DNA of 64,000 nt, taken from IMG/VR virus record IMGVR_UViG_3300020183_004466; one strand, 5' to 3'. Below the pieces are notes generated by a model. That model saw only the letters and a list, made by a program, of their open reading frames with translations, made no database searches and was not told the DNA's origin. Both the position numbers and the translations under genes were made by a program. This document shows, in pieces, positions 1,790-40,278 of the stretch (positions within the stretch are counted from its first letter, which is position 1; the number at the start of each line of letters is the position of its first letter). The DNA comes from an uncultured virus (IMG/VR IMGVR_UViG_3300020183_004466) (Duplodnaviria > Heunggongvirae > Uroviricota > Caudoviricetes).

Positions 1790-2365
1790 CTAATTAAAAT
1801 GTCCAAATCGTCCCAACATTGAAATACCCTTTTGTGTGTCTTTAGATAATCTATCGTCCAATCCTCTAGACATCTTCTTCCAATCCCTACTCTTGATCTC
1901 ACTCTTAAGTATCGATAAAGCAAACCAATAATCGATCTTCTTCTCACACATAGTCTCCCACACCAACTCTAACGTCTTCTCTGAGATCGGGTTATCGCCG
2001 CACCAGAAGAAACCTCCCCCAACCTCCTGTGGCGCTCCCACAAGACTTGTGAGCTTGTTACGGGAGCAATAGAAACCCCATCCAACCTTCTGCGGCGCTC
2101 CCTCCAGACTTGTGAGCTTGTTACTGGAGCAATCGAAACCCACTCCAACCTTCTGTGGCGATCCCTCAAGACTTGTGAGAGAGTTATTGGAGCAAATGAA
2201 ATTCCCAGTAACCACTCCAAACTTAACACCTTTAAAGTCGGTTAATTTTTCCGAGGCACAATCGAAACACCCTCCGATGTCAACTAGTCCAGTCTTCTCG
2301 TTAAGAGTCCACACTCCATCAGTGTACTTGTCTAAAAATTCTATTTGTTCTTTATTAAGCTTCAT
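1790..2365 (-). CDS. LRR-like repeat protein, family A (3 full repeats)
   Basis: conserved N-cap, LTSLxGAPQxVG repeats, C-terminus KGISMLGRFGHFN. Confidence 0.9.
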   Translation of the reverse strand: MKLNKEQIEFLDKYTDGVWTLNEKTGLVDIGGCFDCASEKLTDFKGVKFGVVTGNFICSNNSLTSLEGSPQKVGVGFDCSSNKLTSLEGAPQKVGWGFYCSRNKLTSLVGAPQEVGGGFFWCGDNPISEKTLELVWETMCEKKIDYWFALSILKSEIKSRDWKKMSRGLDDRLSKDTQKGISMLGRFGHFN

Positions 2366-2369
2366 ATAT

Positions 2370-2406
2370 CAAATGTAGAAAAATCTACCTAAAGAAAAAA
2401 ATGATT
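2370..2406 (-). promoter_or_regulatory. 37-bp early promoter repeat
   Basis: near-identical to 616-652; TACATTTG 4 nt before ATG. Confidence 0.8.
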
Positions 2407-3612
2407 CTAATTAAAATGTCCAAATCGTCCCAACATTGAAATACCCTTTTGTGCGTCTTTAGATAATCTATCGTCCAACTCTTTAGACAGCTTCTCCCAA
2501 TCCCCACTCTTGATCTCACTCCTAAGTAACGATAAAGCAAACCAATAGTCGACCTTCTTCTCACACATAGTCTCCCGCACCAACTCTAACGTCTTCTCTG
2601 AGATCGGGTTATTGGAGCAAAGGAAACACCCGCCAACCTTCTGTGGCGCTCCCTCAAGACTTGTGAGATTGTTATCGTAGCAAGATAAATCCCCGCCAAC
2701 CTTCTGTGGCGCTCCCTCAAGACTTGTGAGAGAGTTATAGGAGCAAGAGAATCTCCCTCCAACCTTCTGTGGCGCACCCTCAAGACTTGTGAGAGAGTTA
2801 TAGGAGCAATAGAAACTCCCTCCAACCTCCTGTGGCGCTCCCACAAGACTTGTGAGCTTGTTATCGTGGCAATCGAAACTCCCCTCAACCTTCTGTGGCG
2901 CTCCCCTAAGACTTGTGAGATTGTTATTGTGGCAATCGAAACTCCCCTCAACCTTCTGTGGCGCTCCCCTAAGACTTGTGAGATTGTTATAATTGCAAGA
3001 GAAACTCCTTCCAACCTCCTGTGGCGATCCCTCAAGACTTGTGAGCTTGTTATTGCGGCAATAGAAACTCCCTTTAACCTCTTGTGGCGCTCCCTTAAGA
3101 CTTGTGAGCCTGTTATTGGAGCAACCGAAATACCCTCCAACCTCCTGTGGCGCTCCCACAAGACTTGTGAGCTTGTTATCGTGGCAATCGAAACTCCCCT
3201 CAACCTTCTGTGGCGCTCCCCTAAGACTTGTGAGCATGTTATAGGAGCAATCGAAACTCCCCTCAACCTTCTGTGGCGCTCCCCTAAGACTTGTGAGATT
3301 GTTATAATTGCAAGAGAAACTCCTTCCAACCTCCTGTGGCGATCCCTCAAGACTTGTGAGCTTGTTATTGTCGCAAATGAAATCCCATCCAACCTTCTGT
3401 GGCGCTCCCACAAGACTTGTGAGAGAGTTATTGGAGCAACTGAAATTCCTAGTAACCACTCCAAACCGAACACCTTTAAAGTCGGTTAAGTTTTTACTTC
3501 GACAATAGAAATCCCCTTCGATATCGACTAGTCCAGTCTTCTCGTTAAGAGTCCACTTGCTGCCATAAGTGCACTTGTTTAAAAATTCTATTTGTTCTTT
3601 ATTAAGCTCCAT
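2407..3612 (-). CDS. LRR-like repeat protein, family A (about 12 repeats)
   Basis: 66-bp tandem repeats; start moved to ATG 3612 (MELNKEQ) by paralogy. Confidence 0.9.
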   Translation of the reverse strand: MELNKEQIEFLNKCTYGSKWTLNEKTGLVDIEGDFYCRSKNLTDFKGVRFGVVTRNFSCSNNSLTSLVGAPQKVGWDFICDNNKLTSLEGSPQEVGRSFSCNYNNLTSLRGAPQKVEGSFDCSYNMLTSLRGAPQKVEGSFDCHDNKLTSLVGAPQEVGGYFGCSNNRLTSLKGAPQEVKGSFYCRNNKLTSLEGSPQEVGRSFSCNYNNLTSLRGAPQKVEGSFDCHNNNLTSLRGAPQKVEGSFDCHDNKLTSLVGAPQEVGGSFYCSYNSLTSLEGAPQKVGGRFSCSYNSLTSLEGAPQKVGGDLSCYDNNLTSLEGAPQKVGGCFLCSNNPISEKTLELVRETMCEKKVDYWFALSLLRSEIKSGDWEKLSKELDDRLSKDAQKGISMLGRFGHFN

Positions 3613-3630
3613 AGTTATTTGGTTACAATA

Positions 3631-3667
3631 CAAATGTAGAAAAATCTACTTAAAGAAAAAAATGATT
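3631..3667 (-). promoter_or_regulatory. 37-bp early promoter repeat
   Basis: near-identical to 616-652. Confidence 0.8.
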
Positions 3668-4366
3668 CTAATCAAAATGTCCAAACCGTCCCATCATTGA
3701 AATACCCTTTTGTGTGTCTTTAGATAATCTATCGTCCAATCCTCTAGACATCTTCTCCCAATCCTCACTCTCGATCTGGCTCTTAAGTATCGATAAAGCA
3801 AACCAATAGTCGACCTTTTTTTCTTGCATCGTCTTCCACACCAACTCTAACGTCTTTTCTGAGATCGTGTTATCGGAGCACCAGAAACTCCCCTCAACCT
3901 CCTGTGGCGCTCCCACAAGACTTGTGAGCTTGTTACTTGAGCAATAGAAATACCCTCCAACCTTCTGTGGCGCTCCTTCAAGACTTGTGAGCTTGTTATG
4001 GTCGCAATCGAAACTCCAACCAACCTCCTGTGGCGCTCCCTCAAGACTTGTGAGAGAGTTATTGTCGCAATCGAAATTCCCTCCAACCTTCTGTGGCGCT
4101 CCCACAAGACTTGTGAGCTTGTTATTGGAGCAATAGAAATTCCTTCCCACCTTCTGTGGCGCTCCCACAAGACTTGTGAGCTTGTTATGTGAGCAATCGA
4201 AACACCCAGTAACCACTCCAAACTTAATACCCTTAAAACTTGATTCTCCTCGCCTCCCACAATCGAAATCACCTTTAATATCGACCAGTCCAGTCTTCTC
4301 GTTAAGAGTCCACCTGTCTTTAGCGAACTGGTCTAAAAATTCTATTTGTTCTTTATTAAGCTTCAT
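3668..4366 (-). CDS. LRR-like repeat protein, family A (5 repeats)
   Basis: same caps and repeats as paralogs; ends KGISMMGRFGHFD. Confidence 0.9.
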   Translation of the reverse strand: MKLNKEQIEFLDQFAKDRWTLNEKTGLVDIKGDFDCGRRGESSFKGIKFGVVTGCFDCSHNKLTSLVGAPQKVGRNFYCSNNKLTSLVGAPQKVGGNFDCDNNSLTSLEGAPQEVGWSFDCDHNKLTSLEGAPQKVGGYFYCSSNKLTSLVGAPQEVEGSFWCSDNTISEKTLELVWKTMQEKKVDYWFALSILKSQIESEDWEKMSRGLDDRLSKDTQKGISMMGRFGHFD

Positions 4367-4370
4367 ATAT

Positions 4371-4407
4371 CAAATGTAGAAAAATCTACCTAAAGAAAAA
4401 AATGATT
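4371..4407 (-). promoter_or_regulatory. 37-bp early promoter repeat
   Basis: identical to 2370-2406. Confidence 0.8.
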
Positions 4408-4937
4408 TAGGAAGCTTTTGGATCGTACTTAGATAATATTTTTAAAACCCGATCCCGATGCTTACTCTCGTATATGCTCATGAAAGTCAACCAATGGGCA
4501 AACTGTAGTCTCTCGGCAAAAAGCAAATCCGGGGTTTTAAAAGGAGCTCCAACTGAGAGTTTACCGATGAGCTCTCGTAATCCACCAAGAGAAATTTGCA
4601 GCTGCATAAAAGCATCCGGGTCGATTCCGTCTACCAATTGTTTAAACTTGACATCCGTCTTACCTTCGATATCTTCAACATCCACACCGAAGAATTCTCC
4701 GCTTCCCATACGTCCACCTAAATCCTGATACAACTTATTATGTACACGAGACATTTCTTCATATACACTCTGAAGCTCTTCCCGCATCCGGTCAAATCGT
4801 GCATCGCTCTTTTCCAACACGGCAGTTGAGATACCTAATATACGTCCCATACGCTTGCTCACGTCGTTACCCTCGTAAAAGTGATCTGCGATGTTTCTTG
4901 AAACCGCTAATGCCGCTGTCTTGGTTGTGTCTTTCAT
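4407..4937 (-). CDS. hypothetical protein
   Basis: 176-aa ORF behind promoter motif 4952-4988. Confidence 0.75.
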   Translation of the reverse strand: MKDTTKTAALAVSRNIADHFYEGNDVSKRMGRILGISTAVLEKSDARFDRMREELQSVYEEMSRVHNKLYQDLGGRMGSGEFFGVDVEDIEGKTDVKFKQLVDGIDPDAFMQLQISLGGLRELIGKLSVGAPFKTPDLLFAERLQFAHWLTFMSIYESKHRDRVLKILSKYDPKAS

Positions 4938-4951
4938 AATCTCCTTTTCTG

Positions 4952-4988
4952 TAAATGTAGAAATTTCTTATAAAACAAAAAAATGATT
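4952..4988 (-). promoter_or_regulatory. early promoter (TAcaTTTA variant)
   Basis: AATCATTTTTT...CTACATTTA with the same 37-bp span. Confidence 0.7.
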
Positions 4989-5154
4989 TCCAAAAAATTC
5001 CAATCCGAGGGGAAAATTTCTATCCCCGGGGGTTCCACAGGAACCGCGATTCCGAGAGATGTCCGAACACTTTCCGCTCGGATTCCGAACGAGTTCCGAG
5101 CGGCATCCCGCTGGGATTTTCTTGGAATCTCTGGGATTTCCGAATTTCCTCGCA

Positions 5155-5243
5155 CAACAAAAAACCGAGTCCTTTTGAGACTCGGTCTTATGATAACCAA
5201 TTATAAACCTAAATAATACGGAAAACAAAGATATGTTTTACAA
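5155..5243 (-). ncRNA. candidate U-rich small RNA (~85 nt)
   Basis: promoter motif 5246-5282 followed by an ATG-free U-rich stretch and hairpin ACCGAGTC..GACTCGGT plus U-tract. Confidence 0.45.
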
Positions 5244-5245
5244 AG

Positions 5246-5282
5246 CAAATGTACGCTTACTTTACCGAATAAAAAAACAATT
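5246..5282 (-). promoter_or_regulatory. early promoter
   Basis: AATTGTTTTTTT...GTACATTTG, 37-bp span. Confidence 0.6.
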
Positions 5283-5298
5283 CTCGGATAAATATCAT

Positions 5299-5751
5299 AT
5301 GAAACGTATAAAATCATTCGGAACTCTTTCGGAATCCACATCGGACACCCCAGTTTACACATCGAGACTCTCCAGCTACAAGAAAAATGACAGGCCCACT
5401 CAGATAGACACCTATGACGAACCCAAGTCCCTATATGGCATGAACGTCACAGACGGGAAGGTGGAATGGACACTACAAATCCAACACTTCAACTACGGAA
5501 TAGACATAGGACACGAAGGAGCAAGAATTAAATCCCTAACACTCCACATCGAGAAGGACGACGAATACACAGGAGAACCAGAGGAAGACACTATAGAACT
5601 CACGGAAGAAGACATCAACCACGAGAATCTAAAATACGAAGTAAACCAATTTCCTCTAGACCTGGACGCAATAGAGATCGATATGAATCAATCAGAAGAT
5701 CCCAAAGACTGGAACATCACACTAAAGATAGGAAGAATCTCTGACTATTAG
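5299..5751 (+). CDS. acidic hypothetical protein with CTS-like N-terminus
   Basis: likely start MKRIKSFGTLSES at 5299, 4 nt after GATAAATA. Confidence 0.75.
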   Translation: MKRIKSFGTLSESTSDTPVYTSRLSSYKKNDRPTQIDTYDEPKSLYGMNVTDGKVEWTLQIQHFNYGIDIGHEGARIKSLTLHIEKDDEYTGEPEEDTIELTEEDINHENLKYEVNQFPLDLDAIEIDMNQSEDPKDWNITLKIGRISDY

Positions 5752-5809
5752 AAAATTCCACACACGTACGCGCACATCCGCACGGGGTCCCCGGTACATC
5801 CCCCCACTA

Positions 5810-5840
5810 AAAAGACCAGCCCGAAAGACTGGTCTTTTCT
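5810..5840. terminator. bidirectional intrinsic terminator
   Basis: AAAAGACCAG...CTGGTCTTTT between convergent genes. Confidence 0.75.
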
Positions 5841-5865
5841 TTTTATAATCTCGAGGGGTGTGAGA

Positions 5866-6540
5866 TTAGTTTGTCATTTTAACTTCCATGCCCTCAGCGG
5901 TAACGTTCAGTGTGACATTAACACCAAACTCTTTAACTAGCTTAGCTAAATCCGCAAGATCAATATTGCTAGTTGGCTTAACCGGCTCAGCAACTTTAAT
6001 CTCGCCCTGCTTATTCTCAGCAGCCATCACTAGCACATCAGCAACCAACTCAGGAGTACTCATCACGTTCGCCAATGGCTTACGTACTCTCTTAATTCCA
6101 GTAGGCGGAACAAATCGATCTCCATCAGAGATAAATCCATCCTCTACCAACTTACTCTTCTGACACATGATAGATGCAGGGGTTCTTCCTAGCAAATCTG
6201 TAGTCTCCTTAATAGTCATCTTACTAAGAACCGCGTCCCGTAATAACTCATTCTCAGTATCAGTCCATCTGTAGTTAGCTCGATTGTAAGTGGGAGACGA
6301 CTTAGATGTTCTAATCTTTCTAGCATCTGATTTAATCCCCTCTCTCTTTACTAACAAAGGGTTGTTGCTTCTCTTACCTTTAAGATGAAAACCTCTAGGA
6401 CGCACCTTGTCGCCTAACCATCTGCGTAAACTCTCGGAGTTAATATCAAACTCCTTGGAAACCTCTCTCAAGGTTTTACCATCAGCTACATATGATCTCA
6501 TAGCAGCCACTCTTACATTTTTTGGAATCTTCTTTCCCAT
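5866..6540 (-). CDS. putative DNA-binding protein (HTH plus Myb/SANT-like repeat)
   Basis: GKTLREVSKEFDINSESLRRW HTH; RWTDTENELL...LGRTPASI. Confidence 0.65.
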   Translation of the reverse strand: MGKKIPKNVRVAAMRSYVADGKTLREVSKEFDINSESLRRWLGDKVRPRGFHLKGKRSNNPLLVKREGIKSDARKIRTSKSSPTYNRANYRWTDTENELLRDAVLSKMTIKETTDLLGRTPASIMCQKSKLVEDGFISDGDRFVPPTGIKRVRKPLANVMSTPELVADVLVMAAENKQGEIKVAEPVKPTSNIDLADLAKLVKEFGVNVTLNVTAEGMEVKMTN

Positions 6541-6558
6541 ATATTAAAATTAAATTGT

Positions 6559-6918
6559 TTACAAATCTTCAACGAAGAACATCGCCATCGTTATTCTCTT
6601 ACCATTAGCTCGGGCAATCTGACGGGCAACACCAGCTATCTCCTTCGCCTTATCCCTCGGACTCACCTCAGAACTTACTGGGATATTCACCTCTCCACTC
6701 TTAGTCTTCACCTTAACACTCTTAGTCTTCTTCACTCTCTTCTCGGACAATCCCATCGCACTCTTCTGATACTGTACCGCAGCAGGGGTTCTACCAAGAG
6801 CCTCTGCGATCTCCTTGATACTCTTACCACTCTTGTACATACCCTTCAGAGTCTTACGATCATCCTTAGTCCATGCAGTGGAATCATTAGAAGGAGTTTC
6901 TTTTTTCTTTATAATCAT
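6559..6918 (-). CDS. Myb/GcrA-like HTH DNA-binding protein
   Basis: WTKDDRKTL..GKSIKEIAEALGRTPAAV; related to the second domain of 5866-6540. Confidence 0.65.
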   Translation of the reverse strand: MIIKKKETPSNDSTAWTKDDRKTLKGMYKSGKSIKEIAEALGRTPAAVQYQKSAMGLSEKRVKKTKSVKVKTKSGEVNIPVSSEVSPRDKAKEIAGVARQIARANGKRITMAMFFVEDL

Positions 6919-6951
6919 AACCTTTTACTTTTTTTGTTTTTAGATTTTATG

Positions 6952-6988
6952 CAAATCTAGAAGTTCTCTTCAGAAGAAAAAAATGATT
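6952..6988 (-). promoter_or_regulatory. early promoter
   Basis: AATCATTTTTTT...CTAGATTTG. Confidence 0.75.
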
Positions 6989-6989
6989 T

Positions 6990-7945
6990 CTGAATTTTCC
7001 TACAATTCCCACATCTCTCTATTACATACGGACTCCCGGGACGCACCCGAGATCGCCCCCGCATACGCATACACACACGGGGGTTTCCAAGAGTTTCCAA
7101 GAAATTCCCGGGGTATCTCAGGGATTCCCAGGAAGTTCCCCGAAGATCCATCCTAGATATCCAGGAGATTCCCCGAAATTCCCAGATAATCGCCCGCTCG
7201 AGACCGCGTGGGGTCCCCCTGGGGGCCTTCTGAGGCGCACGTAGAAAGAGGGTTTAACCTCGATCACTTTGTGGTATATTCTACGGGCCTTCTACCAGGG
7301 AGTTCTGTGGGATCTTTTCAGGGAATATCTAGGAGTATTTTAGCTGCACGGGACGCTGAGAAAATCCCCTTGTAGGTCTATCTATTAACTACGTGTATAC
7401 GTGTGAGCGCGGGGTCATCCATACGTCCCCTTCTCTATACAGTATGTGTGGATGTTCTCTATACAGTAGGGATAGGTGTCTATATAGGTATGTGAGTGAT
7501 GTATACTATGTGTAGGGTAGTGATTCTTTTTGTTTTGTGTGTTTTAATTATGGTTGGTGTATTATTAGGTGTATGTGTATACTGTATAGAGGTGTGTATA
7601 TGTATAGAGAGATGTATATAGATAGTAGTTATTAGTAGGTGTTAATAGATGATAGTAGTGATGGGATTATTGTCTATAAGAGCGGGGGCATGATTGGGGG
7701 ATTTTTGGTGTTTAGTCCCCCCTCGGAAAGGGTGGAAAATTCGGGATTTATTTTGGAGATTTTGGTGGAAAATTCGGGGGACTAAACGGGGATTTTTCTA
7801 TTCCGCGCTTTGTGGATGTTTAAGCTAAGATAATGAGGAGGAGGCGAGGCGAAATGGAAAAATGAGGCGAAATTGGGTAGTGAAAACGGGGCGAAACGGG
7901 GCAAGTGAGGCGAGTGTTGCCTCGGTGGATGAGGAGGGTATTGAA
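6990..7945. other. non-coding control region, candidate replication origin
   Basis: no credible ORF; divergent transcription; + strand changes from C/A-rich to G/T-rich; short direct and inverted repeats. Confidence 0.5.
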
Positions 7946-7948
7946 ATG

Positions 7949-7956
7949 GATATATA
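7949..7956 (+). promoter_or_regulatory. late-type promoter motif GATATATA
   Basis: 4 nt before ATG 7961; motif recurs upstream of more than 12 genes. Confidence 0.55.
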
Positions 7957-7960
7957 GAGT

Positions 7961-8527
7961 ATGACCAGAGACGAGCTTATCAAGGTATTAGAGAAGAAAG
8001 GTTACTCCTACAAGATAGAAGGGGATAAGATAGTTGTTACCTATTATAATGGGGATGTCAATTTGAGTTCCCTAACGAGTCTTCCCCCTGGTGTGGAGTT
8101 CAGAAATAAAGGGTTTGTCCTTTTGGAATCACTAACGACACTTCATCATGGTGGGGTATTCAATAATGAAGGGAGTGTCTTTTTGAATTCACTAACGACA
8201 CTTCATCATGGTGGGGTATTCAATAATGAAGGGAGTGTCTTTTTGAATTCACTAACGACACTTCATCCTGGAGTCCAATTCAATAATGGTGGAGAGGTCA
8301 TTTTGGGTTCACTAGAGACACTCCCTCGTGGTGTGGTGTTCAAGAATAGATGGGGTGTCCAGCTTTCAGTATTAAAATCTATTCCCCCCGGTACAGAGTT
8401 TAGAAATGGTCGTGGTGTCGATTTGGGATCACCAAAAGGATGGTTTAGTGAATGGAAAGGAAATATAAAAGGTATAGATTCAAATAGGCTATTGAACGTG
8501 ATGATTAAACAAGAGATGTTTATATGA
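7961..8527 (+). CDS. LRR-like repeat protein, family B
   Basis: MTRDEL..IEGDKIVV N-cap, 22-aa LxSLTxLPxGVxFxNxG repeats, C-cap GNIKGIDSNRLLNVMIK. Confidence 0.9.
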   Translation: MTRDELIKVLEKKGYSYKIEGDKIVVTYYNGDVNLSSLTSLPPGVEFRNKGFVLLESLTTLHHGGVFNNEGSVFLNSLTTLHHGGVFNNEGSVFLNSLTTLHPGVQFNNGGEVILGSLETLPRGVVFKNRWGVQLSVLKSIPPGTEFRNGRGVDLGSPKGWFSEWKGNIKGIDSNRLLNVMIKQEMFI

Positions 8528-9228
8528 CCAGAGAAGAGTTTAAGAAGGTATTAGAAGATAATGAATACTCCTACGAGATAGAAGGGGATCGGATAGTTGT
8601 TACGCATAGGAAGGATGTCTATTTGAGATCTCTAACGAGTCTTCCCCCTGGGGTGGAGTTCGAGAGTGGAGGGTATGTCTATTTGGAATCTCTAACGAGT
8701 CTTCCCCCTGGGGCCCAGTTCAAGAATAGAGGGTCTGTCTATTTGGAATCACTAATGAGTCTTCCCCCTGGTGTGGAGTTCAATAATGGAGGGAATTATG
8801 GAGGTAATGTCTATTTGAAATCACTAACGAGTCTTCCTCCTGGGGTCCAGTTCAAGAATAGAGGGTCTGTCAATTTGGAATCACTAATGAGTCTTCCCCC
8901 TGATGTGAAGTTCGAGAATGTAGGGGAGGTCCGTTTGGATTCGCTAAAGACACTCCCTCCTGATGTGAAGTTCGAGAATGTAGGGTGGGTCCTTTTGGAT
9001 TCACTAGAGACACTCTCTCCTGGGGTTGAGTTCAGGAATAAGGGGTGTGTCAGTTTACATTCCCTAACGAGTCTTCCCCCTGGGGTGGAGTTCGAGAATG
9101 ATGGGTATTCCGATTTGAAATCCCTAATGGGGGGATGGTTTGATGATTGGAAAGGTAATATAAGAGGAATAGGATCTAATAGGTTGCTTAATAAGATGAT
9201 AGAATTAGGGTTATTCGATAAAAAATAA
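8524..9228 (+). CDS. LRR-like repeat protein, family B
   Basis: same caps, about 7 repeats; ATGA overlap. Confidence 0.9.
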   Translation: MTREEFKKVLEDNEYSYEIEGDRIVVTHRKDVYLRSLTSLPPGVEFESGGYVYLESLTSLPPGAQFKNRGSVYLESLMSLPPGVEFNNGGNYGGNVYLKSLTSLPPGVQFKNRGSVNLESLMSLPPDVKFENVGEVRLDSLKTLPPDVKFENVGWVLLDSLETLSPGVEFRNKGCVSLHSLTSLPPGVEFENDGYSDLKSLMGGWFDDWKGNIRGIGSNRLLNKMIELGLFDKK

Positions 9229-9232
9229 AAGG

Positions 9233-9679
9233 ATGACAAGAGAAGAGTTTATAGAGGTATTAGAAAATAAAAGGTATTCCTACGAGATAGAAGGAGATAA
9301 GATAGTGGTTACTGATTATGGGTATGTCGATTTGTCTTTACTAACAAGCCTTCCCTCTGTGGTGGAGTTCAATAATAGAGGTGATCTCAATTTGAAAAGA
9401 TTAAAAACACTTCCCCCTGGTGTCCAGTTCAAGAATTGGGGGGATGTCTATTTGAACTCGCTTAAGACTCTTCCGCCAGATGACCAATTCAATAATAAGG
9501 GGTATGTCAATTTGTCTTCACTAACAAGCCTTCCTCCTGGTGTCCAGTTCCATAATGGAGGTGGTGTCTATTTGGAATCAATAATCGGGGGATGGTTTAA
9601 TCGCTGGAGTGGTAACATAGAAGGAATAGATAGTACTATATTATTAAACTTGATGATCAAAAGAGGAATGTTTATATGA
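9233..9679 (+). CDS. LRR-like repeat protein, family B
   Basis: same caps and repeats. Confidence 0.9.
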   Translation: MTREEFIEVLENKRYSYEIEGDKIVVTDYGYVDLSLLTSLPSVVEFNNRGDLNLKRLKTLPPGVQFKNWGDVYLNSLKTLPPDDQFNNKGYVNLSSLTSLPPGVQFHNGGGVYLESIIGGWFNRWSGNIEGIDSTILLNLMIKRGMFI

Positions 9680-10062
9680 CAAGAGAAGAGTTTATAGAGC
9701 AATTAGATTATATGGGCGTTCCTTATAAGATAGAAGGCGATAAGATAGTTGTAAATGGAACAAATATAAAGCTTAATTTATTAGATAGTATTCCATCAGG
9801 AGTTCGTTTTGATAATAGGATTGGTGTGAGCTTGGTGTCGCTAAAACACCTTCCACCTGATGTAGTTTTCAATAATAGGGAGGACGTATTTTTTAGAGAT
9901 ATAGAGACAATCTCTCCTGGTGTGGAATTCAGAAATGGTGGATATGTATATCTTGGAAAATTCACGGATGGTGGGCTTTTCCATTATTGGGATGGTAATA
10001 TAAAAGGAATAGATAGTAAGAGATTATTGAACTTGATGATTAAACAAGAGATGTTTATATGA
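9676..10062 (+). CDS. LRR-like repeat protein, family B
   Basis: same caps, fewer repeats. Confidence 0.9.
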   Translation: MTREEFIEQLDYMGVPYKIEGDKIVVNGTNIKLNLLDSIPSGVRFDNRIGVSLVSLKHLPPDVVFNNREDVFFRDIETISPGVEFRNGGYVYLGKFTDGGLFHYWDGNIKGIDSKRLLNLMIKQEMFI

Positions 10063-10899: not shown

Positions 10900-11592
10900 A
10901 TGGAGAAACACACACAGAAAGGACCTGATGGTTACATGATGATCGGAGCTAACATGGGTAATGTTATACCTATGGATGTTATAGGTATTCAGCATAAAGG
11001 AGATATAGATGTCGCACATATTGTTTTTCTTATTGATGATGAGAGATTTAAGAACAAGCTCGTTATAACCCCTGGTCTAATAACATACACGGATTTTAAG
11101 AACTCTCAAAAACAAATAAGCATCTATAGATCCGCTCCTGAATGTTTAGAAAATTCTCCAAATAAATGGAGATTGATGGATATAGATGAGCTTGAGGCTT
11201 TCTATGATTTTTATAAGCGAGAGGGGATGGGTCAGTTCTATGATTTGGTTGAGGATTATAGTTTCGAATACGGATCATCAGATTTTGTGGATATAGATCG
11301 CACTGAAACAAGTAAGATCTATTGTGTGGATTTTGGGAGTGGTAAAAGAAAGACAAGATATCAATATCAGGATAAGGCTTTGATGATGATAAGGAAAGTC
11401 ACTGATGATGACATTGTCACCATAATGAAGGACATGATTGATAGAGTGGCTTTTACCGAATTTAGTTTTATTGCGGAGAAGGTGATAAAGCTTTATCCGA
11501 ACTTAGAGGAGAGAATCAAATCACTAGCTGGTGAGGATGCTGATGATTCTTTCAAGGGATCGAGATTTCTTAGAATTTTTGAAACTTATTAA
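10900..11592 (+). CDS. hypothetical protein with DUF1566 (Lcl)-like domain and degenerate C-terminal tag
   Basis: KWRLMDIDEL, YCVDFGSG; ends KGSRFLRIFETY. Confidence 0.55.
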   Translation: MEKHTQKGPDGYMMIGANMGNVIPMDVIGIQHKGDIDVAHIVFLIDDERFKNKLVITPGLITYTDFKNSQKQISIYRSAPECLENSPNKWRLMDIDELEAFYDFYKREGMGQFYDLVEDYSFEYGSSDFVDIDRTETSKIYCVDFGSGKRKTRYQYQDKALMMIRKVTDDDIVTIMKDMIDRVAFTEFSFIAEKVIKLYPNLEERIKSLAGEDADDSFKGSRFLRIFETY

Positions 11593-11600: not shown

Positions 11601-12413
11601 ATGGAGCTTACAGAAAAACAAGAGAAGTGGTTGAATAGATGCGTAAATGGTTATACTTGGTGGAGGAATATACCCGGGCATTTTGAGGTCAACCAAGAAA
11701 CTGGACTAGTTGATATCTATGGAACTTTTGATTGCTCTAATCAGGGTATAGAAGATTTTATGGGTATTAGATTTGGAGTGGTTACAGGAATAAAATTTGA
11801 TTGCTCATATAACGAACTTACAAGTCTTGAAGGTGCTCCTCTTGAAATAGGGAGTAGTGAGGATAGTATGGCTGCTGGAGCTGAATTTTTATGCTCGCAT
11901 AACAATTTAAAGAAACTAGGAAACGTTCTTCCTAAACAAAAGAATTATTTAACATACTTCGACTGCAAGGATAATCTTTTGGAAAATCTGGTAGGGCTTC
12001 CCAAAAATATTATGAATTTAGATTTTTCTAAAAACAGGATAATAAGTCTCAAAGGAATACCCTTAGGATTTAGATTTACCGAGGAATTTTATTTAAAACA
12101 TTTTTATAATGAATCATATCGACCGGATATAGTTCACGAGTTAGATTATATTAGATGTGAAGGAAATATAATTCCGGAAAGAAGAATAAGAAGCATATAC
12201 AAAACTATGGTGGAATTCCAGTGTGATTATTGGATGGCTTTAGCTCTTCATGCTAAAGGTATAAAATATTGGAGTCCTGATATATGGGAGAAGATTCTTA
12301 AGGATCCTGAAGTAAAGCATTTCTCTGATTTAACTGAGGGATTTGATTCTGTTGCTATATCAGAAATGTATATGGCTTCTTTGGCTCTATCTGAATTAGA
12401 AATGAATTTATAA
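11601..12413 (+). CDS. divergent LRR-like protein, family A
   Basis: GLVDIYGTFDCS..FMGIRFGVVTG, NELTSLEGAP, DYWMALAL shared with family A. Confidence 0.8.
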   Translation: MELTEKQEKWLNRCVNGYTWWRNIPGHFEVNQETGLVDIYGTFDCSNQGIEDFMGIRFGVVTGIKFDCSYNELTSLEGAPLEIGSSEDSMAAGAEFLCSHNNLKKLGNVLPKQKNYLTYFDCKDNLLENLVGLPKNIMNLDFSKNRIISLKGIPLGFRFTEEFYLKHFYNESYRPDIVHELDYIRCEGNIIPERRIRSIYKTMVEFQCDYWMALALHAKGIKYWSPDIWEKILKDPEVKHFSDLTEGFDSVAISEMYMASLALSELEMNL

Positions 12414-13909: not shown

Positions 13910-14593
13910 ATGGAAATAACAAAATTTATATTCGTTCCCGATGGTCATTATGGATATCCAACACCGGAAGACGGGGATACACCCCGTGATTATCATGCTT
14001 TAGTTGAAGAATATTGTGACTCTTCATATAGCGCATGGAATATGGGAGATTTTTCTGAAGGGGAACCAGACGAGGATGACTACGAAACATCGGAAGAATA
14101 TGATGAAGCATATGCAGAATGGGAGGAAAATCAAGACAGTAATAAAGTGGACTGTTATGATGAATACGGATGCTATGATGTTTTTAGAAATTCATATGAA
14201 ATGCTATCAGATGGGGTAGATCCGGAAGATATATTTGATTCATTTTTTAATTATGATGGGACTTCATGTCACGATGATTTCATGCAGAGTGCTGCTAATA
14301 CTGAGGGTGTTGTTTATGTTATTTCTAGAGGAAGCGATGATGAGATAGCACTAGCAGGACAAGTTTATCCTCTTTCATCCGATGCACAAGAAATATCAGA
14401 GATTCTTTCAGACACAATAGTAAAAGAGTATAGAAATAAAAACCCTAAAGCTGGCGTTATGTACAAAGATATATCATCTTCAATCTCAGGTGTTGATGAT
14501 AAGGTTAGATCTAAGCTTTCACCTGAAGAATATGATGATCTGAATAGGGCAGGTAAAGGTGGATCTATGCTAAGGAGATTTGGAATAGATTAA
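13910..14593 (+). CDS. acidic hypothetical protein with C-terminal KGGSMLRRFG tag
   Basis: ORF; GATAAATA upstream at 13883. Confidence 0.8.
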   Translation: MEITKFIFVPDGHYGYPTPEDGDTPRDYHALVEEYCDSSYSAWNMGDFSEGEPDEDDYETSEEYDEAYAEWEENQDSNKVDCYDEYGCYDVFRNSYEMLSDGVDPEDIFDSFFNYDGTSCHDDFMQSAANTEGVVYVISRGSDDEIALAGQVYPLSSDAQEISEILSDTIVKEYRNKNPKAGVMYKDISSSISGVDDKVRSKLSPEEYDDLNRAGKGGSMLRRFGID

Positions 14594-20297: not shown

Positions 20298-21011
20298 TTA
20301 GTTATCATCGCTTTCAAATCCACCGAATCTCTTAAGCATTGAAGCTCCTTTTGCTATGTCGCTTCCTTTTAAGCTAGGAGGAAGTGAAACTTGCTTATAA
20401 ACTTTAGGAGAACTTGAAATACTTCCTTCTCTAGGGTCAGAAGGAACTTCAACATCTTTAAAATGTCTAATTACACTAGGATCTTCGTCCATTTTTCTTT
20501 TTATAAGGTCCTTATAAGACTCATTATTATAGAGTTCTTCATTAGAAACTGGGAATCCTTGTTGTCTTATACAATACTTAATAAGAAAACTCATCTTATA
20601 AAGATAATCTTGTACTGTCATACAAGACCTAGTTAAATCAGTACTTAATCTAGGAAATTCTGCAGTGTTTCCAACTCCTTCTACTACTCTAACTCCGCCA
20701 TCATGCTTGATATTAAAATGAGGATATCCCTCTGGGGCATTTCCTGTGGCTCTTCTAGTTAATCTCATTCCCTTAAATACTGGGTGATAGAATGCAATGT
20801 TACCCATTCTATCCTTGTGACTTCTTTCTTCTTCAGTAGCAAAAGCTAATATACCAGCTGGATTATCCGCAAGTACCTCAATCCAACCCATTCCTATCAT
20901 GTCTGTATATGTTTCAGATTCTCTGATTGGTTTAAAACTTAGAACTGGACATTTCTTAGGTCTTCTTACTTCTTGTATTTTTCTGAAGTTCTTATAATTT
21001 TTAACTTTCAT
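20298..21011 (-). CDS. hypothetical protein with CTS-like N-terminus and KGASMLKRFG C-terminal tag
   Basis: MKVKNYKNF; GATATATA upstream (21029-21036); distant similarity to 37893-38903. Confidence 0.8.
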   Translation of the reverse strand: MKVKNYKNFRKIQEVRRPKKCPVLSFKPIRESETYTDMIGMGWIEVLADNPAGILAFATEEERSHKDRMGNIAFYHPVFKGMRLTRRATGNAPEGYPHFNIKHDGGVRVVEGVGNTAEFPRLSTDLTRSCMTVQDYLYKMSFLIKYCIRQQGFPVSNEELYNNESYKDLIKRKMDEDPSVIRHFKDVEVPSDPREGSISSSPKVYKQVSLPPSLKGSDIAKGASMLKRFGGFESDDN

Positions 21012-33158: not shown

Positions 33159-33665
33159 TTAGTAGTTTTCTCCGTCTGATACCATAGAATCTTCTTCGTG
33201 GTGTAGATCCATAGTGGCTTTTAAAAATCCATAAACCTCTTCTACATCATCCTTAGATGTTGCTATATGATCGGTTGCCCATCCGTGTCCTTCACTAAGA
33301 AGAGAATCGACTTTTGCTGGATCCATTTCTAAAATCTCCCCGCAAATTCTTTTTATATTAGAAACATTTGCAAAAAACATATAGTTTTCAGACTCATCAT
33401 GATCCTCATTCATACCTTTAAGGGTTTTTGCTAGCTGGAGTCTCTTATAAAGCTTAGCGTCCCTTTTACCTAACTGAGCACCAGGAGTTTTAGAATCAAG
33501 ATCCTTTCTCATAAGATCCGCAATTTCATCCTTTATTTCAGTTTTAGTGATCTTTTCTCCTTCCTTCTTATGAAAATGTTTCCTAAGAGCTCCAGGATGC
33601 TTTATAGAGTCCTTTATCCACTCTTTCTCGTTTAGAAATTGGTCGAATTTTTTTATGTTGCTCAT
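33159..33665 (-). CDS. putative head internal protein
   Basis: MSNIKKFDQFLNE; WIKDSIKHPGALR; NYMFF..GHGWATDHI. Confidence 0.7.
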   Translation of the reverse strand: MSNIKKFDQFLNEKEWIKDSIKHPGALRKHFHKKEGEKITKTEIKDEIADLMRKDLDSKTPGAQLGKRDAKLYKRLQLAKTLKGMNEDHDESENYMFFANVSNIKRICGEILEMDPAKVDSLLSEGHGWATDHIATSKDDVEEVYGFLKATMDLHHEEDSMVSDGENY

Positions 33666-37474: not shown

Positions 37475-37481
37475 TATATTT

Positions 37482-37892: not shown

Positions 37893-38903
37893 TTAGAATA
37901 GACCGAACCTATCTAACATAGATGCTCCCTTCTTAACATCAGTGTCTAAAACAGAATTAGGGTCAGGCATTCTTGTTGATATTAATGGCTCTGAGGATGC
38001 TAAAGAAGAAAGTGCAGAACTATAAGAATCAAGATCCCCAGATACATACAATTTACAAAGCTTATTAGCTTCTTTTGTTGATATTTTAAATTTATAAATC
38101 AGAATATCCTTCATAAGATATCCTATTAAATAGCTAAGCTTAAGATTTAAATCATCCTCAGTATACATAGGACCGGATATCTCAATATTAGAAGTAAGTA
38201 CAGGTGTTTTGTCCCCAAGATCCCTTCTGATATAACCATTAGGCTGTATTATCAATCCATAATTAAGGTCTCTAATAGAAAATCTTAAAATTCCTTTTTT
38301 CTTCCTAGCTTCACTTGTATCTATATAAGCTCCAAGCTTGTCTAAGATTTTAATTAAAGGATTATTATTTAGATCCACGTCTGTAAAAGGATTCAGAACA
38401 GGTAAATCTTCCTTTACAACATCTCTTAAAGAACTAAAAATGCTATAGATTATTGATTTTAGATTTTCATCAATACCTCTGTTGTTAAAATCCCACCTTT
38501 CCCCGTTTTGCATTACTCTATAATCAACACCCTCGACGGGAGTATAAGTCCCTTCCTCTATTTCTATTCTTTTCTTTATGTCTTGGTGATATCTTCCTAT
38601 AGGATATTTCAATCCTAGATTTCTATAAAAATCTTCAACTAATTTAAGATCCTTAAGATTGTTGGTATTTGGTACAACTTTGTCACCTATATAATTAACA
38701 AAAGGGAATAGTATCTTGTTGCCGTTTATATTAAAATAGATGTTATCTCCTTCTAAAGATATAGAAAAATTTCTAAGACCTATAACTTTAGATAATATAT
38801 TCTTCTTAGCTCTCTCTATAAAAAAATCCTTAACCGATTTAGGTAGTTCATTAAATTCTGAATAGCTCTCGTTTATAAACTGAGAGAAGTTCATTATTTT
38901 CAT
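37893..38903 (-). CDS. hypothetical protein with CTS-like N-terminus and KGASMLDRFGLF tag
   Basis: MKIMNFSQFINES; C-terminal tag. Confidence 0.8.
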   Translation of the reverse strand: MKIMNFSQFINESYSEFNELPKSVKDFFIERAKKNILSKVIGLRNFSISLEGDNIYFNINGNKILFPFVNYIGDKVVPNTNNLKDLKLVEDFYRNLGLKYPIGRYHQDIKKRIEIEEGTYTPVEGVDYRVMQNGERWDFNNRGIDENLKSIIYSIFSSLRDVVKEDLPVLNPFTDVDLNNNPLIKILDKLGAYIDTSEARKKKGILRFSIRDLNYGLIIQPNGYIRRDLGDKTPVLTSNIEISGPMYTEDDLNLKLSYLIGYLMKDILIYKFKISTKEANKLCKLYVSGDLDSYSSALSSLASSEPLISTRMPDPNSVLDTDVKKGASMLDRFGLF

Positions 38904-38957
38904 ATAGATACAATATTATTTGGTAAAGATAGAAAAATATTCACAATGAAAAAAATG

Positions 38958-39398
38958 TTACTTAAGAGTTAATAGATATTTAAGCTTAGAAACTGCTGCT
39001 ATTAATTCATCTACCATATTTTGTAAGTCAGATTCTTTCAGTTCATTTCTAAGAGAATTTAAGCACTCTAGCATAGAATTTAACCAAGAATCACATTCAA
39101 CATCTTTAAAGCTTATAAACTCGCATGAGTTACCAAAATCTATTCTTCCGTGATATCCTTGGTATGATTCAACTAAAGAATCTAATCCTTCATCGATACT
39201 CCCATAAGTATCACCGAATGCGTTGTGCTGAGCATATGATTCCGTACCCCAGTGCATTATTTTAAGCTGTGCTTGGAATAGAAGAAGATTTATAAAATGT
39301 TCATCCACTGATGATCCCAATGATTTTGTTTTTCTTGTAATAATATCTAAATCCATTTCTAATTCTGTTCCTTTGTCTTTAAATTCGTCGAATGTCAT
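38958..39398 (-). CDS. ferritin/Dps-like four-helix protein (DUF5856-like)
   Basis: HWGT.SYAQH.AF..TY....D.LVESYQG..GR; DLQN..DE....KLKYLLTLK. Confidence 0.8.
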   Translation of the reverse strand: MTFDEFKDKGTELEMDLDIITRKTKSLGSSVDEHFINLLLFQAQLKIMHWGTESYAQHNAFGDTYGSIDEGLDSLVESYQGYHGRIDFGNSCEFISFKDVECDSWLNSMLECLNSLRNELKESDLQNMVDELIAAVSKLKYLLTLK

Positions 39399-39411
39399 TT
39401 TTTAATTTATT

Positions 39412-40278
39412 TTAAAATCCTAGATCCCCCAGATCTGCTGCAGTGTCTATATTAGGTAAAAGCTCTTTTACTCTATTATATATCCCCACGTTAGATTTTC
39501 TTAACTCGTCTGCTGCTTTAAATGAATCCTCAGATTCTCTAAAATATAAAACAACATAATTTGCCATTCTTTCTGGTAAAGGAATATTCTTAAAATACTC
39601 CATATCATATATAGCAAATATCTTTAGAAAATTAAATATTCTATTACCTAAATCAGTTGAAAATTCTATTCCTTTATAGAGATCTGAAGCCATTTTAAAG
39701 CTTTTGTCTAACTCGTTAATAACAGTTTGATCCACCATTAAGGAATTGTAGTAATTCTCCTTCGTGTACTTTTTTAAATAGTCAAGATATTTTAATTTTT
39801 GAATATTGCTAATATTAGAAGGTAAGAATATTTCGTTTATTACATTTTTTATTGATTCCTGTACAGCAGAAGCAATAGCATCTTTAACTTCCATTGTCAC
39901 TGCAGAATTTACAGGAGGTATTCTTTTTATCTTTTCAACTAAAAAATTATTAATAAACCAATTTACACTCTTTACACCTAAAGAAGAATCAATAGCTATC
40001 TCTTTATCGAAATCAAAACTAGTTAAATATCCTTGTGGATATGGTGTTGTTTTATCCGTTTCTATAGATGATAAAACTGATTCAGGAACATCCAGACTTA
40101 AAATAGAATTAAGATAAGCCTTATAAGCTGCCCATCTAGGAAAATCCCTTTCCTCGTTACATTTCGCCATTCCTTTTAATGCAAATTCCAGATGATTCTT
40201 ATAATCTTTATTTAAGAACAATTCTTTGTAATTAAATCCAGCGCTTTCGAAAAGATTAAATCCTACTAAATTTTTCAT
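39412..40278 (-). CDS. hypothetical protein with CTS-like N-terminus
   Basis: MKNLVGFNLFES; ends TAADLGDLGF. Confidence 0.75.
   Translation of the reverse strand: MKNLVGFNLFESAGFNYKELFLNKDYKNHLEFALKGMAKCNEERDFPRWAAYKAYLNSILSLDVPESVLSSIETDKTTPYPQGYLTSFDFDKEIAIDSSLGVKSVNWFINNFLVEKIKRIPPVNSAVTMEVKDAIASAVQESIKNVINEIFLPSNISNIQKLKYLDYLKKYTKENYYNSLMVDQTVINELDKSFKMASDLYKGIEFSTDLGNRIFNFLKIFAIYDMEYFKNIPLPERMANYVVLYFRESEDSFKAADELRKSNVGIYNRVKELLPNIDTAADLGDLGF

What the first reader, a model, noticed from the sequence alone, without database searches (positions are those of the whole stretch)
1790..40278. Shared C-terminal tag KG.SML.RFG.F on unrelated proteins: possible modular adaptor system
Seen: family A LRR proteins end KGISMLGRFGHF(N) or KGISMMGRFGHFD. 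The otherwise unrelated 13910-14593 ends KGGSMLRRFGID, 20298-21011 ends KGASMLKRFGGF and 37893-38903 ends KGASMLDRFGLF. Looser versions are in 10900-11592 (KGSRFLRIFETY) and 39412-40278 (TAADLGDLGF). Most have acidic residues shortly before the tag. The bodies differ (LRR, lectin-like, acidic, unknown) and the genes are spread over 38 kb on both strands. Inference: a portable docking peptide that links variable target-binding domains to one common hub, such as a protease/AAA+ unfoldase, membrane or phage structure. This would resemble poxvirus ankyrin/F-box adaptors and could be used to neutralise host defence proteins. I do not recognise this motif from described phages.
Basis: partly seen in the sequence, partly recalled or inferred. 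Interest (0 to 1): 0.9.

Follow-up and report, generated by a model that had tools for sequence, protein, structure and literature searches.

The report
Shared docking tag on phage proteins
A jumbo phage of Bacteroidota puts the same twelve-residue peptide on more than a dozen unrelated, mostly early proteins, and the peptide changes in step on all of them in sister phages, so it most likely acts as an address label read by one still unknown partner.

Summary
The strict motif KG..M[LM].[RK]FG occurs 6 times in the window. All six lie 12-17 residues from a stop, against 0.0005 expected. An 81%-identical 206-kb phage contig (G001) adds 17 carriers. With the tag masked, the 23 carriers fall into 13 BLAST-unrelated groups. 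Nineteen tags are C-terminal, two N-terminal and two internal.

The loose copy in 10900-11592 is a decayed ortholog of a good tag. The one in 39412-40278 is a different conserved tail.

The tag changes in step in sister lineages. Position 5 is Met in 11 of 14 families here and in 0 of 11 in G006/G009. Position 8 is Arg in 10 of 11 families there and in 0 of 8 in G010. Proteome composition and the polymerase tail stay the same. This points to one co-evolving protein receptor rather than plain membrane binding.

The receptor is not identified. The phage clamp (44957-45724) is a weak candidate, because the polymerase tail is a different motif.

Carrier genes are enriched for host sigma-A-type promoters, which suggests early expression. 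The adaptor and anti-defence reading remains untested.

The parts
1790..2365 (-). LRR carrier (191 aa). The tag KGISMLGRFG is encoded at 1802-1831 and is followed by HFN and the stop.
   Evidence: matrix score 41.1
2407..3633 (-). LRR carrier (408 aa as called). The tag is at 2419-2448. The real start is probably the ATG at 3612, because the promoter-like TACATTTG box overlaps the TTG at 3633 (inference).
   Evidence: Pfam LRR_4 E 5.6e-12, 45.9 bits against a cut-off of 27
3668..4366 (-). LRR carrier (232 aa). The tag KGISMMGRFG is at 3680-3709.
2366..2406 (-). Class A promoter-like element (T-run followed by TACATTTG, which fits TAnnTTTG) upstream of 1790-2365. Near-identical copies lie at 4367-4406 and upstream of 2407-3633.
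   Evidence: sigma-A -7 consensus TAnnTTTG in Flavobacterium, PMC9723704 (passages)
10900..11592 (+). Carrier with a decayed tag KGSRFLRIFETY (11554-11589). Its G001 ortholog ends KGSRMLRRFGEY.
11601..12413 (+). Fourth LRR paralog, without the tag.
   Evidence: 29-39% identity to the tagged LRR genes; matrix score -14.4
13910..14593 (+). Acidic ORFan carrier (227 aa). The tag KGGSMLRRFG is at 14555-14584.
   Evidence: no Pfam or PHROG family
20298..21011 (-). ORFan carrier (237 aa). The tag KGASMLKRFG is at 20322-20351 and is followed by GFESDDN. Orthologs occur in all four lineages, each with that lineage's form of the tag.
   Evidence: family 2
37893..38903 (-). ORFan carrier (336 aa). The tag KGASMLDRFG is at 37902-37931. 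It also has the N-terminal MKIMNFSQFINES motif.
   Evidence: 57 homologs keep the tail; AF2 mean pLDDT 81, helix 321-332 runs into the tag, last three 10-residue blocks pLDDT 72/68/59; no PDB fold match
38904..38957 (-). Class A promoter-like element upstream of 37893-38903.
39412..40278 (-). Not a carrier. It has its own invariant tail ..LLPNIDTAADLGDLGF and lies just downstream of the MoxR, peptidase-like and VWA genes.
44957..45724 (-). Phage sliding clamp (PCNA/gp45 fold), considered as the receptor.
   Evidence: AF2 pLDDT 93.4; Foldseek hits to PCNA and beta clamps, E 4e-11, TM about 0.7
43786..44955 (-). C-terminal half of a split family-B DNA polymerase. Its tail ..SPNLLLVRSLY is a different conserved terminal motif.

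Best explanation
The peptide K-G-x-S-M-L-x-R-F-G-x-(F/I) is a genuine short linear motif. It is a cationic amphipathic helix of about 12 residues at the end of a flexible, often acidic tail. It is less often found near the N-terminus or in a linker.

A sub-clade of jumbo phages carries it. These phages have a T4-type replisome and appear to infect Bacteroidota. Within this sub-clade the peptide has been placed on at least 13 unrelated protein families, nearly all ORFans plus one LRR family.

The peptide works as an address or docking tag. One protein receptor reads it and thereby gathers all carriers at one place or hands them to one machine.

Shown: the motif is real, far above chance, biased to termini, conserved as protein while codons drift, and altered in step on unrelated carriers in sister lineages.

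Inferred: it forms a helix; a single protein receptor reads it; most carriers are made early from host sigma-A-type promoters; the host is a member of Bacteroidota.

Unknown: the receptor, whether it is a host or a phage protein, and what happens to the carriers or to whatever they bind.
For: Enrichment. The window has 6 strict matches against 0.0005 expected. G001 has 10 DNA-pattern matches against 0 for the reversed control. On the tag matrix, 22 of 416 ORFs score >=17.7, the shuffle maximum is 16.3 and the next real ORF scores 12.5.

Independence. The 23 carriers form 13 BLAST-unrelated groups once the tag is masked.

Position. Nineteen of the 23 tags start within 17 residues of the C-terminus, 2 start at residue 11, and 2 are internal.

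Rarity elsewhere. The DNA pattern hit 11 stretches among 2.9 million viral contigs. Eight lie in four related contigs and 3 look like chance. In 185,579 species genomes it hit 51 stretches, close to my rough estimate of about 70 by chance (not computed by any search). Only one of these is a true terminal tag, on a phage-like 9-kb contig.

Purifying selection. Codons are synonymous but different between carriers. The 37893 family keeps the tail down to about 50% identity.

In-step change, counted by family:
- Met at position 5: 11 of 14 families in lineage A (window, G001), 0 of 11 in lineage B (G006, G009), p=1.2e-4; 1 of 8 in lineage C (G010).
- Arg at position 8: 11 of 14 in A, 10 of 11 in B, 0 of 8 in C (Asn or Lys instead), p=1.2e-4 for B against C.
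- Eight families are seen in more than one lineage, and each carries the local form of the tag.

The change is not compositional. Proteome Met (1.7-2.1%) and Arg (3.6-4.0%) are the same in all lineages.

Shape. The mean hydrophobic moment is 0.57, equal to the 95th percentile of random 11-mers. Net charge is +1 to +3. AF2 puts a helix on the tag of 37893.

Expression. A class A promoter (T-run plus TAnnTTTG) precedes 9 of 22 carrier genes against 25 of 347 others (Fisher p=3.5e-5).
Against: No receptor was identified, and no binding, localisation or stability data exist.

The peptide is also a textbook cationic amphipathic helix. It resembles the E. coli MinD membrane anchor ..EEKKGFLKRLFGG.

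Counts by carrier include orthologs twice (window with G001, G006 with G009). The by-family counts are small: 8 to 14 per lineage.

The relaxed matrix used outside lineage A gives 0.2-0.45 false hits per proteome. Three internal hits are probably false.

The 'early' label rests on a promoter consensus, not on expression data. Four of the 22 carrier genes have the other (class B) promoter box.

All genomes are uncultured contigs that are 34-85% complete.
Confidence: 0.6

Rival explanations
1. Membrane-targeting amphipathic helix of the MinD/FtsA kind. The tag lies flat on the cytoplasmic face of the inner membrane and brings the carriers there. No protein receptor is involved.
For: The tag is cationic and amphipathic, with mean hydrophobic moment 0.57 and charge +1 to +3. 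It is flanked by Gly, like the E. coli MinD tail ..KKGFLKRLFGG. It works in principle at a C-terminus, an N-terminus or a linker, as seen here.
Against: K1, G2, M5, F9 and G10 are near-invariant across unrelated carriers within a genome. Amphipathicity alone does not require this.

All carriers of a lineage switch together, Met to Ile/Leu and Arg to Asn/Lys. The Arg to Asn change removes charge.

Several tags are followed by acidic runs such as ESDDN, GEDE and DEDED, which should repel an anionic membrane.
Confidence: 0.13
2. Shared degron. The tag marks the carriers themselves for timed destruction by one protease, either a host Lon/Clp/FtsH type or the ClpP-like protease of the phage. This would remove early proteins later in infection.
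For: The tag is terminal, hydrophobic and aromatic, and sits on proteins that appear to be early. A protease receptor would also explain the in-step changes. G001 encodes a ClpP-like protease at L021:7371-7943 (phrog_94 and phrog_1827).
Against: Four of the 23 tags are N-terminal or internal. There are no data on stability. I know of no precedent for one degron shared by a dozen phage proteins; I did not search for one.
Confidence: 0.1
3. The receptor is the phage sliding clamp. The tag is a clamp-binding tail like those of T4 gp43 and gp55, and it recruits the carriers to replicating phage DNA.
For: The phage has a PCNA-fold clamp next to its polymerase. T4 gp43 ends ..EEKASLDFLFG and gp55 ends ..SPSLDFLYEAND. 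These are acidic linkers followed by Ser, hydrophobic residues, Phe and Gly, loosely like the tag. Clamp-binding motifs can be terminal or internal (general knowledge).
Against: The polymerase of this clade carries a different tail. 119 of 120 homologs end ..NLLLV.[AS]L[FY], and the best tag-matrix score among them is -1.2. That tail is unchanged in lineages A, B and C while the tag changes.

No carrier is a recognisable DNA- or RNA-handling protein.

G036 is 99% complete and has a clamp 44% identical to this one, yet it has no tag.
Confidence: 0.08
4. Capsid or scaffold targeting peptide, in the manner of encapsulin cargo-loading peptides or the T4 capsid targeting sequence. The carriers would be packed into the head and injected.
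For: Unrelated cargo proteins share a terminal peptide. Some carriers also have an N-terminal motif like that of the T4 internal proteins. Giant phages pack many ejection proteins (PMC7411985, abstract only).
Against: Carrier genes are enriched for the host-type class A promoter, not the class B box that goes with the N-terminal motif. Tag and N-terminal motif are not associated: 2 of 22 against 31 of 347. No capsid gene was recognised in the contigs for a test.
Confidence: 0.05
5. No function. The similarity is left over from common ancestry or from recombination of a small module, or it is chance.
For: The three LRR carriers of the window are paralogs.
Against: The carriers form 13 unrelated groups. 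Synonymous codons have drifted while the residues are kept. The shuffle expectation is 0.0005. The tag changes in step in sister lineages.
Confidence: 0.02

Closest known systems
T4 sliding-clamp-binding C-terminal tails (gp43 polymerase, gp55 sigma factor)
   Same: One short terminal peptide after an acidic linker is shared by unrelated proteins of one phage and read by one hub. T4 gp43 and gp55 share SLDFL[FY]. This phage has a T4-type replisome and a PCNA-fold clamp.
   Different: The polymerase here carries another tail. The carriers are ORFans and LRR proteins, not replication or transcription factors. The motif is basic rather than acidic. The receptor is not identified.
MinD-type C-terminal membrane-targeting helix
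   Same: Both are short cationic amphipathic helices flanked by Gly. E. coli MinD ends KKGFLKRLFGG.
   Different: The residues here are near-invariant across unrelated carriers and change in step between lineages. That is not expected for lipid binding.
T4 capsid targeting sequence of internal proteins IPI, IPII and IPIII
   Same: Both are portable ~10-residue terminal peptides that send unrelated proteins to one destination (PMC9026906, passages).
   Different: The T4 sequence is N-terminal and cleaved. In this phage the look-alike of that sequence is a separate N-terminal motif on other proteins, not the KG tag.
Poxvirus ankyrin/F-box (PRANC) and other repeat-plus-box adaptors
   Same: In the LRR family a variable repeat domain is followed by a small helical region and a short conserved C-terminal docking element.
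   Different: There is no sequence relation to F-box (no Pfam hit). Most carriers have no repeat domain. No ligase or protease partner is known. The comparison is recalled knowledge, not a test.
Shared terminal tags noted in other jumbo phages by this scan (e1-5666260, e1-5756822, e1-1960956, e1-5978825)
   Same: A dozen or more unrelated proteins per phage end in one short peptide. In some of those cases the peptide changes in step in sister phages.
   Different: Those are unchecked AI notes on other genomes with other motifs. Most of those carriers are DNA-handling proteins, and a clamp or an AAA ATPase was suspected as the receptor.

Membership tests
T4-type clamp-binding tail | The phage encodes a PCNA/gp45-fold sliding clamp. 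| tested here: met
   44957-45724: AF2 pLDDT 93.4; Foldseek hits to PCNA and beta clamps, E 4e-11
T4-type clamp-binding tail | The replicative polymerase ends in the same motif as the other clients. | tested here: not met
   119 of 120 PolB-C homologs end ..NLLLV.[AS]L[FY]; best tag-matrix score -1.2
T4-type clamp-binding tail | The clients are replication, repair or transcription proteins. | tested here: not met
   The carriers have no Pfam or PHROG function apart from LRR and the unknown phrog_1987.
T4-type clamp-binding tail | The peptide binds the clamp. | not testable with these tools
   Needs a binding assay with the purified clamp.
MinD/FtsA-type membrane-targeting helix | A short cationic amphipathic helix. 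| tested here: met
   Mean hydrophobic moment 0.57 against 0.30 for random 11-mers; charge +1 to +3; helix in the AF2 model
MinD/FtsA-type membrane-targeting helix | Only the physico-chemical pattern is constrained, not residue identity. | tested here: not met
   K1 in 24 of 24, G2 in 23 of 24, M5 in 21 of 24 and F9 in 23 of 24 carriers of lineage A; in-step switches between lineages
MinD/FtsA-type membrane-targeting helix | Binds lipid bilayers. | not testable with these tools
   Needs a liposome or localisation assay.
Capsid-targeting or cargo-loading peptide | The carriers are expressed with, and packed into, the capsid. | tested here: inconclusive
   The carriers are enriched for the host-type promoter: 9 of 22 against 25 of 347. 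There are no expression or virion data.
F-box/PRANC-like adaptor | Sequence or profile match to an F-box-type domain. | tested here: not met
   No Pfam match in the tails of the carriers scanned.
F-box/PRANC-like adaptor | A repeat-type target-binding domain upstream of the docking element. | tested here: inconclusive
   Met only for the LRR family, which is 8 of the 23 carriers. The other bodies are of unknown fold (for 37893).
Leucine-rich repeat proteins (Pfam LRR_4) | Score above the Pfam gathering cut-off. | tested here: met
   2407-3633 scores 45.9 bits against a cut-off of 27. 3668-4366 scores 24.3 bits (below) and 1790-2365 has no hit, but both are 62-70% identical paralogs of 2407-3633.

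The most novel reading that the evidence does not exclude
The tag is the docking end of a phage-encoded adaptor system. The LRR and ORFan bodies each capture a different host protein, for example a defence factor. The common tag plugs them into one remodelling or degrading machine. That machine could be a host AAA+ protease, or the phage's own MoxR, VWA and metallopeptidase-like sets, which are present in the tag-bearing lineages and gave no BLAST hit in the tag-free relative G036. The lineage-specific forms of the tag would then follow the receptor of each host or phage lineage. This would be a bacterial-virus counterpart of the poxvirus ankyrin/F-box adaptors.
Probability: 0.12. Interest if true: 0.9.

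Novelty: new variant of a known kind. Interest (0 to 1): 0.72.

Why it matters
Hub-and-tag wiring by short linear motifs is well known in eukaryotes and in a few phage replisomes. It is hardly described for the large pool of early phage proteins of unknown function. Here one peptide links 13 or more ORFan families into a single functional group. That gives a handle on proteins that otherwise offer none.

The handle is a 12-residue peptide that can be synthesised and used for pull-down, localisation or competition. The natural forms of the tag in sister lineages serve as built-in specificity controls. If the receptor is a host machine, the system would show how a jumbo phage redirects it with interchangeable adaptors.

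This scan has noted similar tags with other sequences in other jumbo phages. Such address codes may therefore be a general feature of large phage proteomes.

Tried and rejected
**Receptor test**
- Complex prediction of the clamp (alignment A1) with the 40-residue tail (alignment A2) scored 0.02 against a mark of 0.32. The controls were not folded, so there is no verdict either way.

**Function and fold of the carriers**
- tblastn of 37893-38903 against 50,697 phage records found no match.
- Pfam and PHROGs gave no function for the carriers scanned, apart from LRR and the unknown phrog_1987.
- Foldseek of the 37893 model against the PDB found no match at E<=0.001.

**Collection scans**
Of 82 matches in the 80 loci fetched, 38 are one unrelated ORF of about 63 aa and 21 are phage-type tags. 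No new carrier with a known domain appeared.
- The scan of 185,579 species genomes gave 51 stretches. This is near my own rough estimate of about 70 chance hits, which no call computed. Only L213 is a real tag, so there is no sign of a cellular motif being mimicked, at least for this codon-restricted pattern.

**Deeper relatives**
- The search with P0166 in viral contigs found none.
- Alignment A3 found only 4 loci.
- G015 and G013 (52% and 25% complete) show no carriers.
- LR756500 (462 kb) has 0 strict matches.
- G036 (99% complete, clamp 44% identical) has no tag and no enriched C-terminal pattern. The same de novo test recovers the tag in G001.

**Phyletic screen for a phage receptor**
- 85 of 344 query ORFs are present in lineages B and C and absent from G036. 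That is too many to name one.

**Earlier notes and literature**
- Look-ups in the scan's earlier findings by place and by sequence returned nothing.
- A full-text search for five forms of the tag string found 0 papers. Two broader searches found nothing on such a tag. Subscription journals are not covered.

The matrix was then built from the stored alignment A2.

Full report
**What the window is**

The window is a stretch of an uncultured jumbo phage. PHROGs and Pfam find:
- a split T4-type family-B DNA polymerase (62591-63997 and 43786-44955);
- topoisomerase II subunits and ribonucleotide reductase;
- an RNA ligase and a full-length DnaJ;
- a MoxR ATPase with peptidase-like and VWA-like partners.

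The closest polymerases are those of huge uncultured phages and T4-like cyanophages. No whole genome is held for the window.

A Bacteroidota host is suggested by three things:
- a weak match to the type-9 secretion sorting domain in 16065-18233;
- promoter boxes of the Flavobacterium sigma-A type;
- a related 9-kb contig binned with a Cryomorphaceae genome.

**The observation**

The strict pattern KG..M[LM].[RK]FG occurs six times in the six-frame translation. Every match lies in a long ORF, 12 to 17 residues before the stop. The mean in 2000 shuffles of the 80-ORF proteome is 0.0005. Codons differ between carriers at nearly every degenerate site, so selection acts on the peptide.

The three LRR genes are paralogs (62-70% identical). 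A fourth paralog, 11601-12413, lacks the tag. The other bodies match only over the tag.

**A close relative multiplies the cases**

37893-38903 has an 81%-identical homolog on a 206,617-bp viral contig, G001. A degenerate DNA pattern hits G001 10 times, against 0 for the reversed control.

I built a position matrix from the 19 aligned tails (A2). It separates 22 of 416 ORFs of window plus G001 (scores 17.7-43.0) from the rest. The next real score is 12.5 and the shuffle maximum is 16.3. One further carrier lies in an ORF that my non-overlap filter had dropped.

With the tag masked, the 23 carriers form 13 groups with no BLAST link at E<=1e-3. Nineteen tags are C-terminal, two start at residue 11, and two lie in linkers at residue 42 of 169 and residue 75 of 163.

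- 10900-11592 is a decayed copy, since its G001 ortholog ends KGSRMLRRFGEY.
- 39412-40278 carries another tail that is invariant even in a 29%-identical ortholog.

**How rare the motif is elsewhere**

- In 2.9 million viral contigs the pattern hit 11 stretches. Eight lie in four related contigs and three look like chance.
- In one genome each of 185,579 species it hit 51 stretches. This is close to my own rough estimate of about 70 by chance, which no call computed. The only true terminal tag sits on a phage-like contig.
- The metagenome scan was swamped by an unrelated small ORF (38 of 82 matches). It still returned 21 phage-type tags.
- The 57 homologs of 37893 keep the tail down to about 50% identity. 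Below that it drifts and gains an acidic extension.

**The key test: change in step**

Notes from this scan on other phages suggested asking whether the tag changes together on all carriers in sister phages.

The clamp gene gave 52 related viral contigs. The Met-type DNA pattern was found in only 1 of 47 further contigs. I therefore read several contigs in full. The tag is present in them, but in local forms:

| Lineage | Contigs | Clamp identity to the window | Form of the tag |
|---|---|---|---|
| A | window, G001 | G001 97% | KG.SML.RFG |
| B | G006, G009 | 87% and 84% | KG.S[IL]L.R[FLV]G |
| C | G010 | 80% | KG.[GS]LL.[NK]FG |
| D | G012 | 78% | [QA]GA.LL.RFG |

Counted by family:
- Met at position 5: 11 of 14 families in A, 0 of 11 in B (p=1.2e-4), 1 of 8 in C.
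- Arg at position 8: 11 of 14 in A, 10 of 11 in B, 0 of 8 in C (p=1.2e-4 for B against C).
- Eight families occur in more than one lineage, and each wears the local form. Family 2 (20298), for example, reads KGASMLKRFGGF, KGANILKRFGGF, KGAGMLKNFGVF and QGASLLKRFGGF.

Overall Met and Arg usage does not differ between the proteomes.

A complete relative whose clamp is 44% identical (G036) has no tag at all. The same de novo test recovers the tag in G001. The system therefore appears confined to a young sub-clade.

Caveats:
- Orthologs in window/G001 and in G006/G009 are not independent when counted by carrier.
- The relaxed matrix gives 0.2-0.45 false hits per proteome.
- The contigs are incomplete.

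**What this implies**

A coordinated switch of single residues on unrelated proteins, without compositional drift and with divergent codons, is what one expects if a single protein pocket reads the peptide and co-evolves with it. Lipid binding alone would not produce it.

The peptide is nevertheless a good cationic amphipathic helix. Its mean hydrophobic moment is 0.57, the 95th percentile of random 11-mers. AF2 draws a helix over the tag of 37893. It resembles the MinD anchor ..KKGFLKRLFGG. The membrane rival is therefore kept at a lower weight.

**Who reads it?**

I first suspected the phage clamp. T4 gp43 and gp55 share an SLDFL[FY] tail. In addition, 44957-45724 folds as a PCNA-type clamp (pLDDT 93.4; Foldseek E 4e-11).

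Three results argue against the clamp:
- 119 of 120 polymerase homologs end in ..NLLLV.[AS]L[FY], a different motif.
- That tail is unchanged in lineages A, B and C while the tag changes.
- No carrier is a recognisable DNA-handling protein.

A phyletic screen left 85 of 344 query ORFs that are shared by the tag-bearing lineages and absent from G036. Among them are the MoxR, peptidase-like and VWA genes. This is a lead, not a result. The receptor may equally be a host protein.

**Timing**

Two promoter-like boxes stand out in the upstream regions.

Class A is a T-run followed by TACATTTG or TATCTTTG. It fits the sigma-A -7 box TAnnTTTG of Flavobacterium (PMC9723704, passages). It precedes 9 of 22 carrier genes against 25 of 347 others (p=3.5e-5).

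If these are early genes made by the host polymerase, the receptor must be available early. That argues against a capsid destination.

**Verdict**

The docking-tag reading is supported by the in-step test. The hub, the adaptor role and any link to defence remain open.

Noticed in passing
window 37893-38903, 42258-43751, 47184-48701, 27306-28835, 33159-33665, 51363-52109, 54344-54826, 15175-15576 and others; G001 e.g. 132290-132757: Many proteins begin with one N-terminal motif, M-x(2-5)-F-x-x-F-(I/L/V)-N-E, for example MKIMNFSQFINES and MRILRFEDFLNES. It resembles the start of T4 internal proteins IPII and IPIII, MKTYQEFIAEA. The first ten residues of IPIII are the capsid targeting sequence (PMC9026906, passages). 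Counts are 8 of 78 window ORFs and 25 of 291 G001 ORFs by a loose regex that includes some false hits. The motif goes with the class B promoter box: 19 of 33 against 48 of 336, p=9e-8. It is not associated with the KG tag. These may be packaged, protease-processed proteins.
   Followed up: partly
window, e.g. 2366-2406, 4367-4406, 38904-38957 (class A); upstream of 42258-43751, 47184-48701, 51363-52109, 54344-54826, 27306-28835 (class B): There are two recurrent upstream boxes. Class A is a T-run plus TAnnTTTG, like Bacteroidota sigma-A. Class B is GATATATA, 7-30 nt before the start codon. In some cases it is so close that the mRNA would be nearly leaderless. G001 encodes three RpoD-like sigma factors.
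   Followed up: partly
window 39412-40278: Its tail ..LLPNIDTAADLGDLGF is identical in orthologs that are 66% (G001) and 29% (G010) identical overall. It is a second, different conserved terminal peptide. The gene lies directly downstream of the MoxR, peptidase-like and VWA genes.
   Followed up: partly
window 43786-44955 and 62591-63997: The family-B DNA polymerase is split into two genes about 18 kb apart. The C-terminal half ends in a clade-wide motif ..SPNLLLV.[AS]L[FY] in 119 of 120 homologs. This is probably the polymerase's own clamp-binding tail.
   Followed up: partly
window 7961-10854: Six tandem paralogs start MTREEF.. and share their own conserved C-terminus..GIDS.RLLN.MIK..MFI. 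This is another family-specific tail on repeat-like proteins.
   Followed up: no
window 16065-18233: A 722-aa protein has a signal-peptide-like start, CUB and GEVED domains and a weak match to the type-9 secretion C-terminal sorting domain (E 0.003, below the cut-off). It looks like a phage-encoded protein that uses a Bacteroidota secretion route.
   Followed up: no
window 28879-30975 and 31012-33147: Two adjacent paralogs of about 700 aa share the same start (MKYISLFDDF) and similar basic C-termini (..KKNESR.Y..S..SF).
   Followed up: no
window 1-8000: The first 8 kb have higher G+C (0.42-0.45) than the rest (0.29-0.38). ORF 54-491 contains an internal repeat (..EIPSNLLWRS..).
   Followed up: no
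G001 92292-97440 (L017:7292-12440): An LRR carrier (95151-95867) sits between two CobT-like VWA genes and next to a MoxR/CobS-like ATPase. In the window, carrier 37893-38903 lies downstream of another MoxR/VWA set.
   Followed up: no
L213 (9-kb contig binned in a Cryomorphaceae genome) and L118: A 127-aa ORF ends ..KGGSMLKRFGLYGNDE. Its neighbouring paralog ends ..IGLAKRFGI. Other neighbours are homologs of phage genes. This is a hint at the host group and at further tag variants.
   Followed up: partly
metagenome loci L045, L046, L050 and 35 others: One ORF of about 63 aa (..KGISMLFRFGTEAG..) recurs nearly unchanged in 38 contigs and matches the DNA pattern by chance. It is unrelated to the phage.
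   Followed up: no
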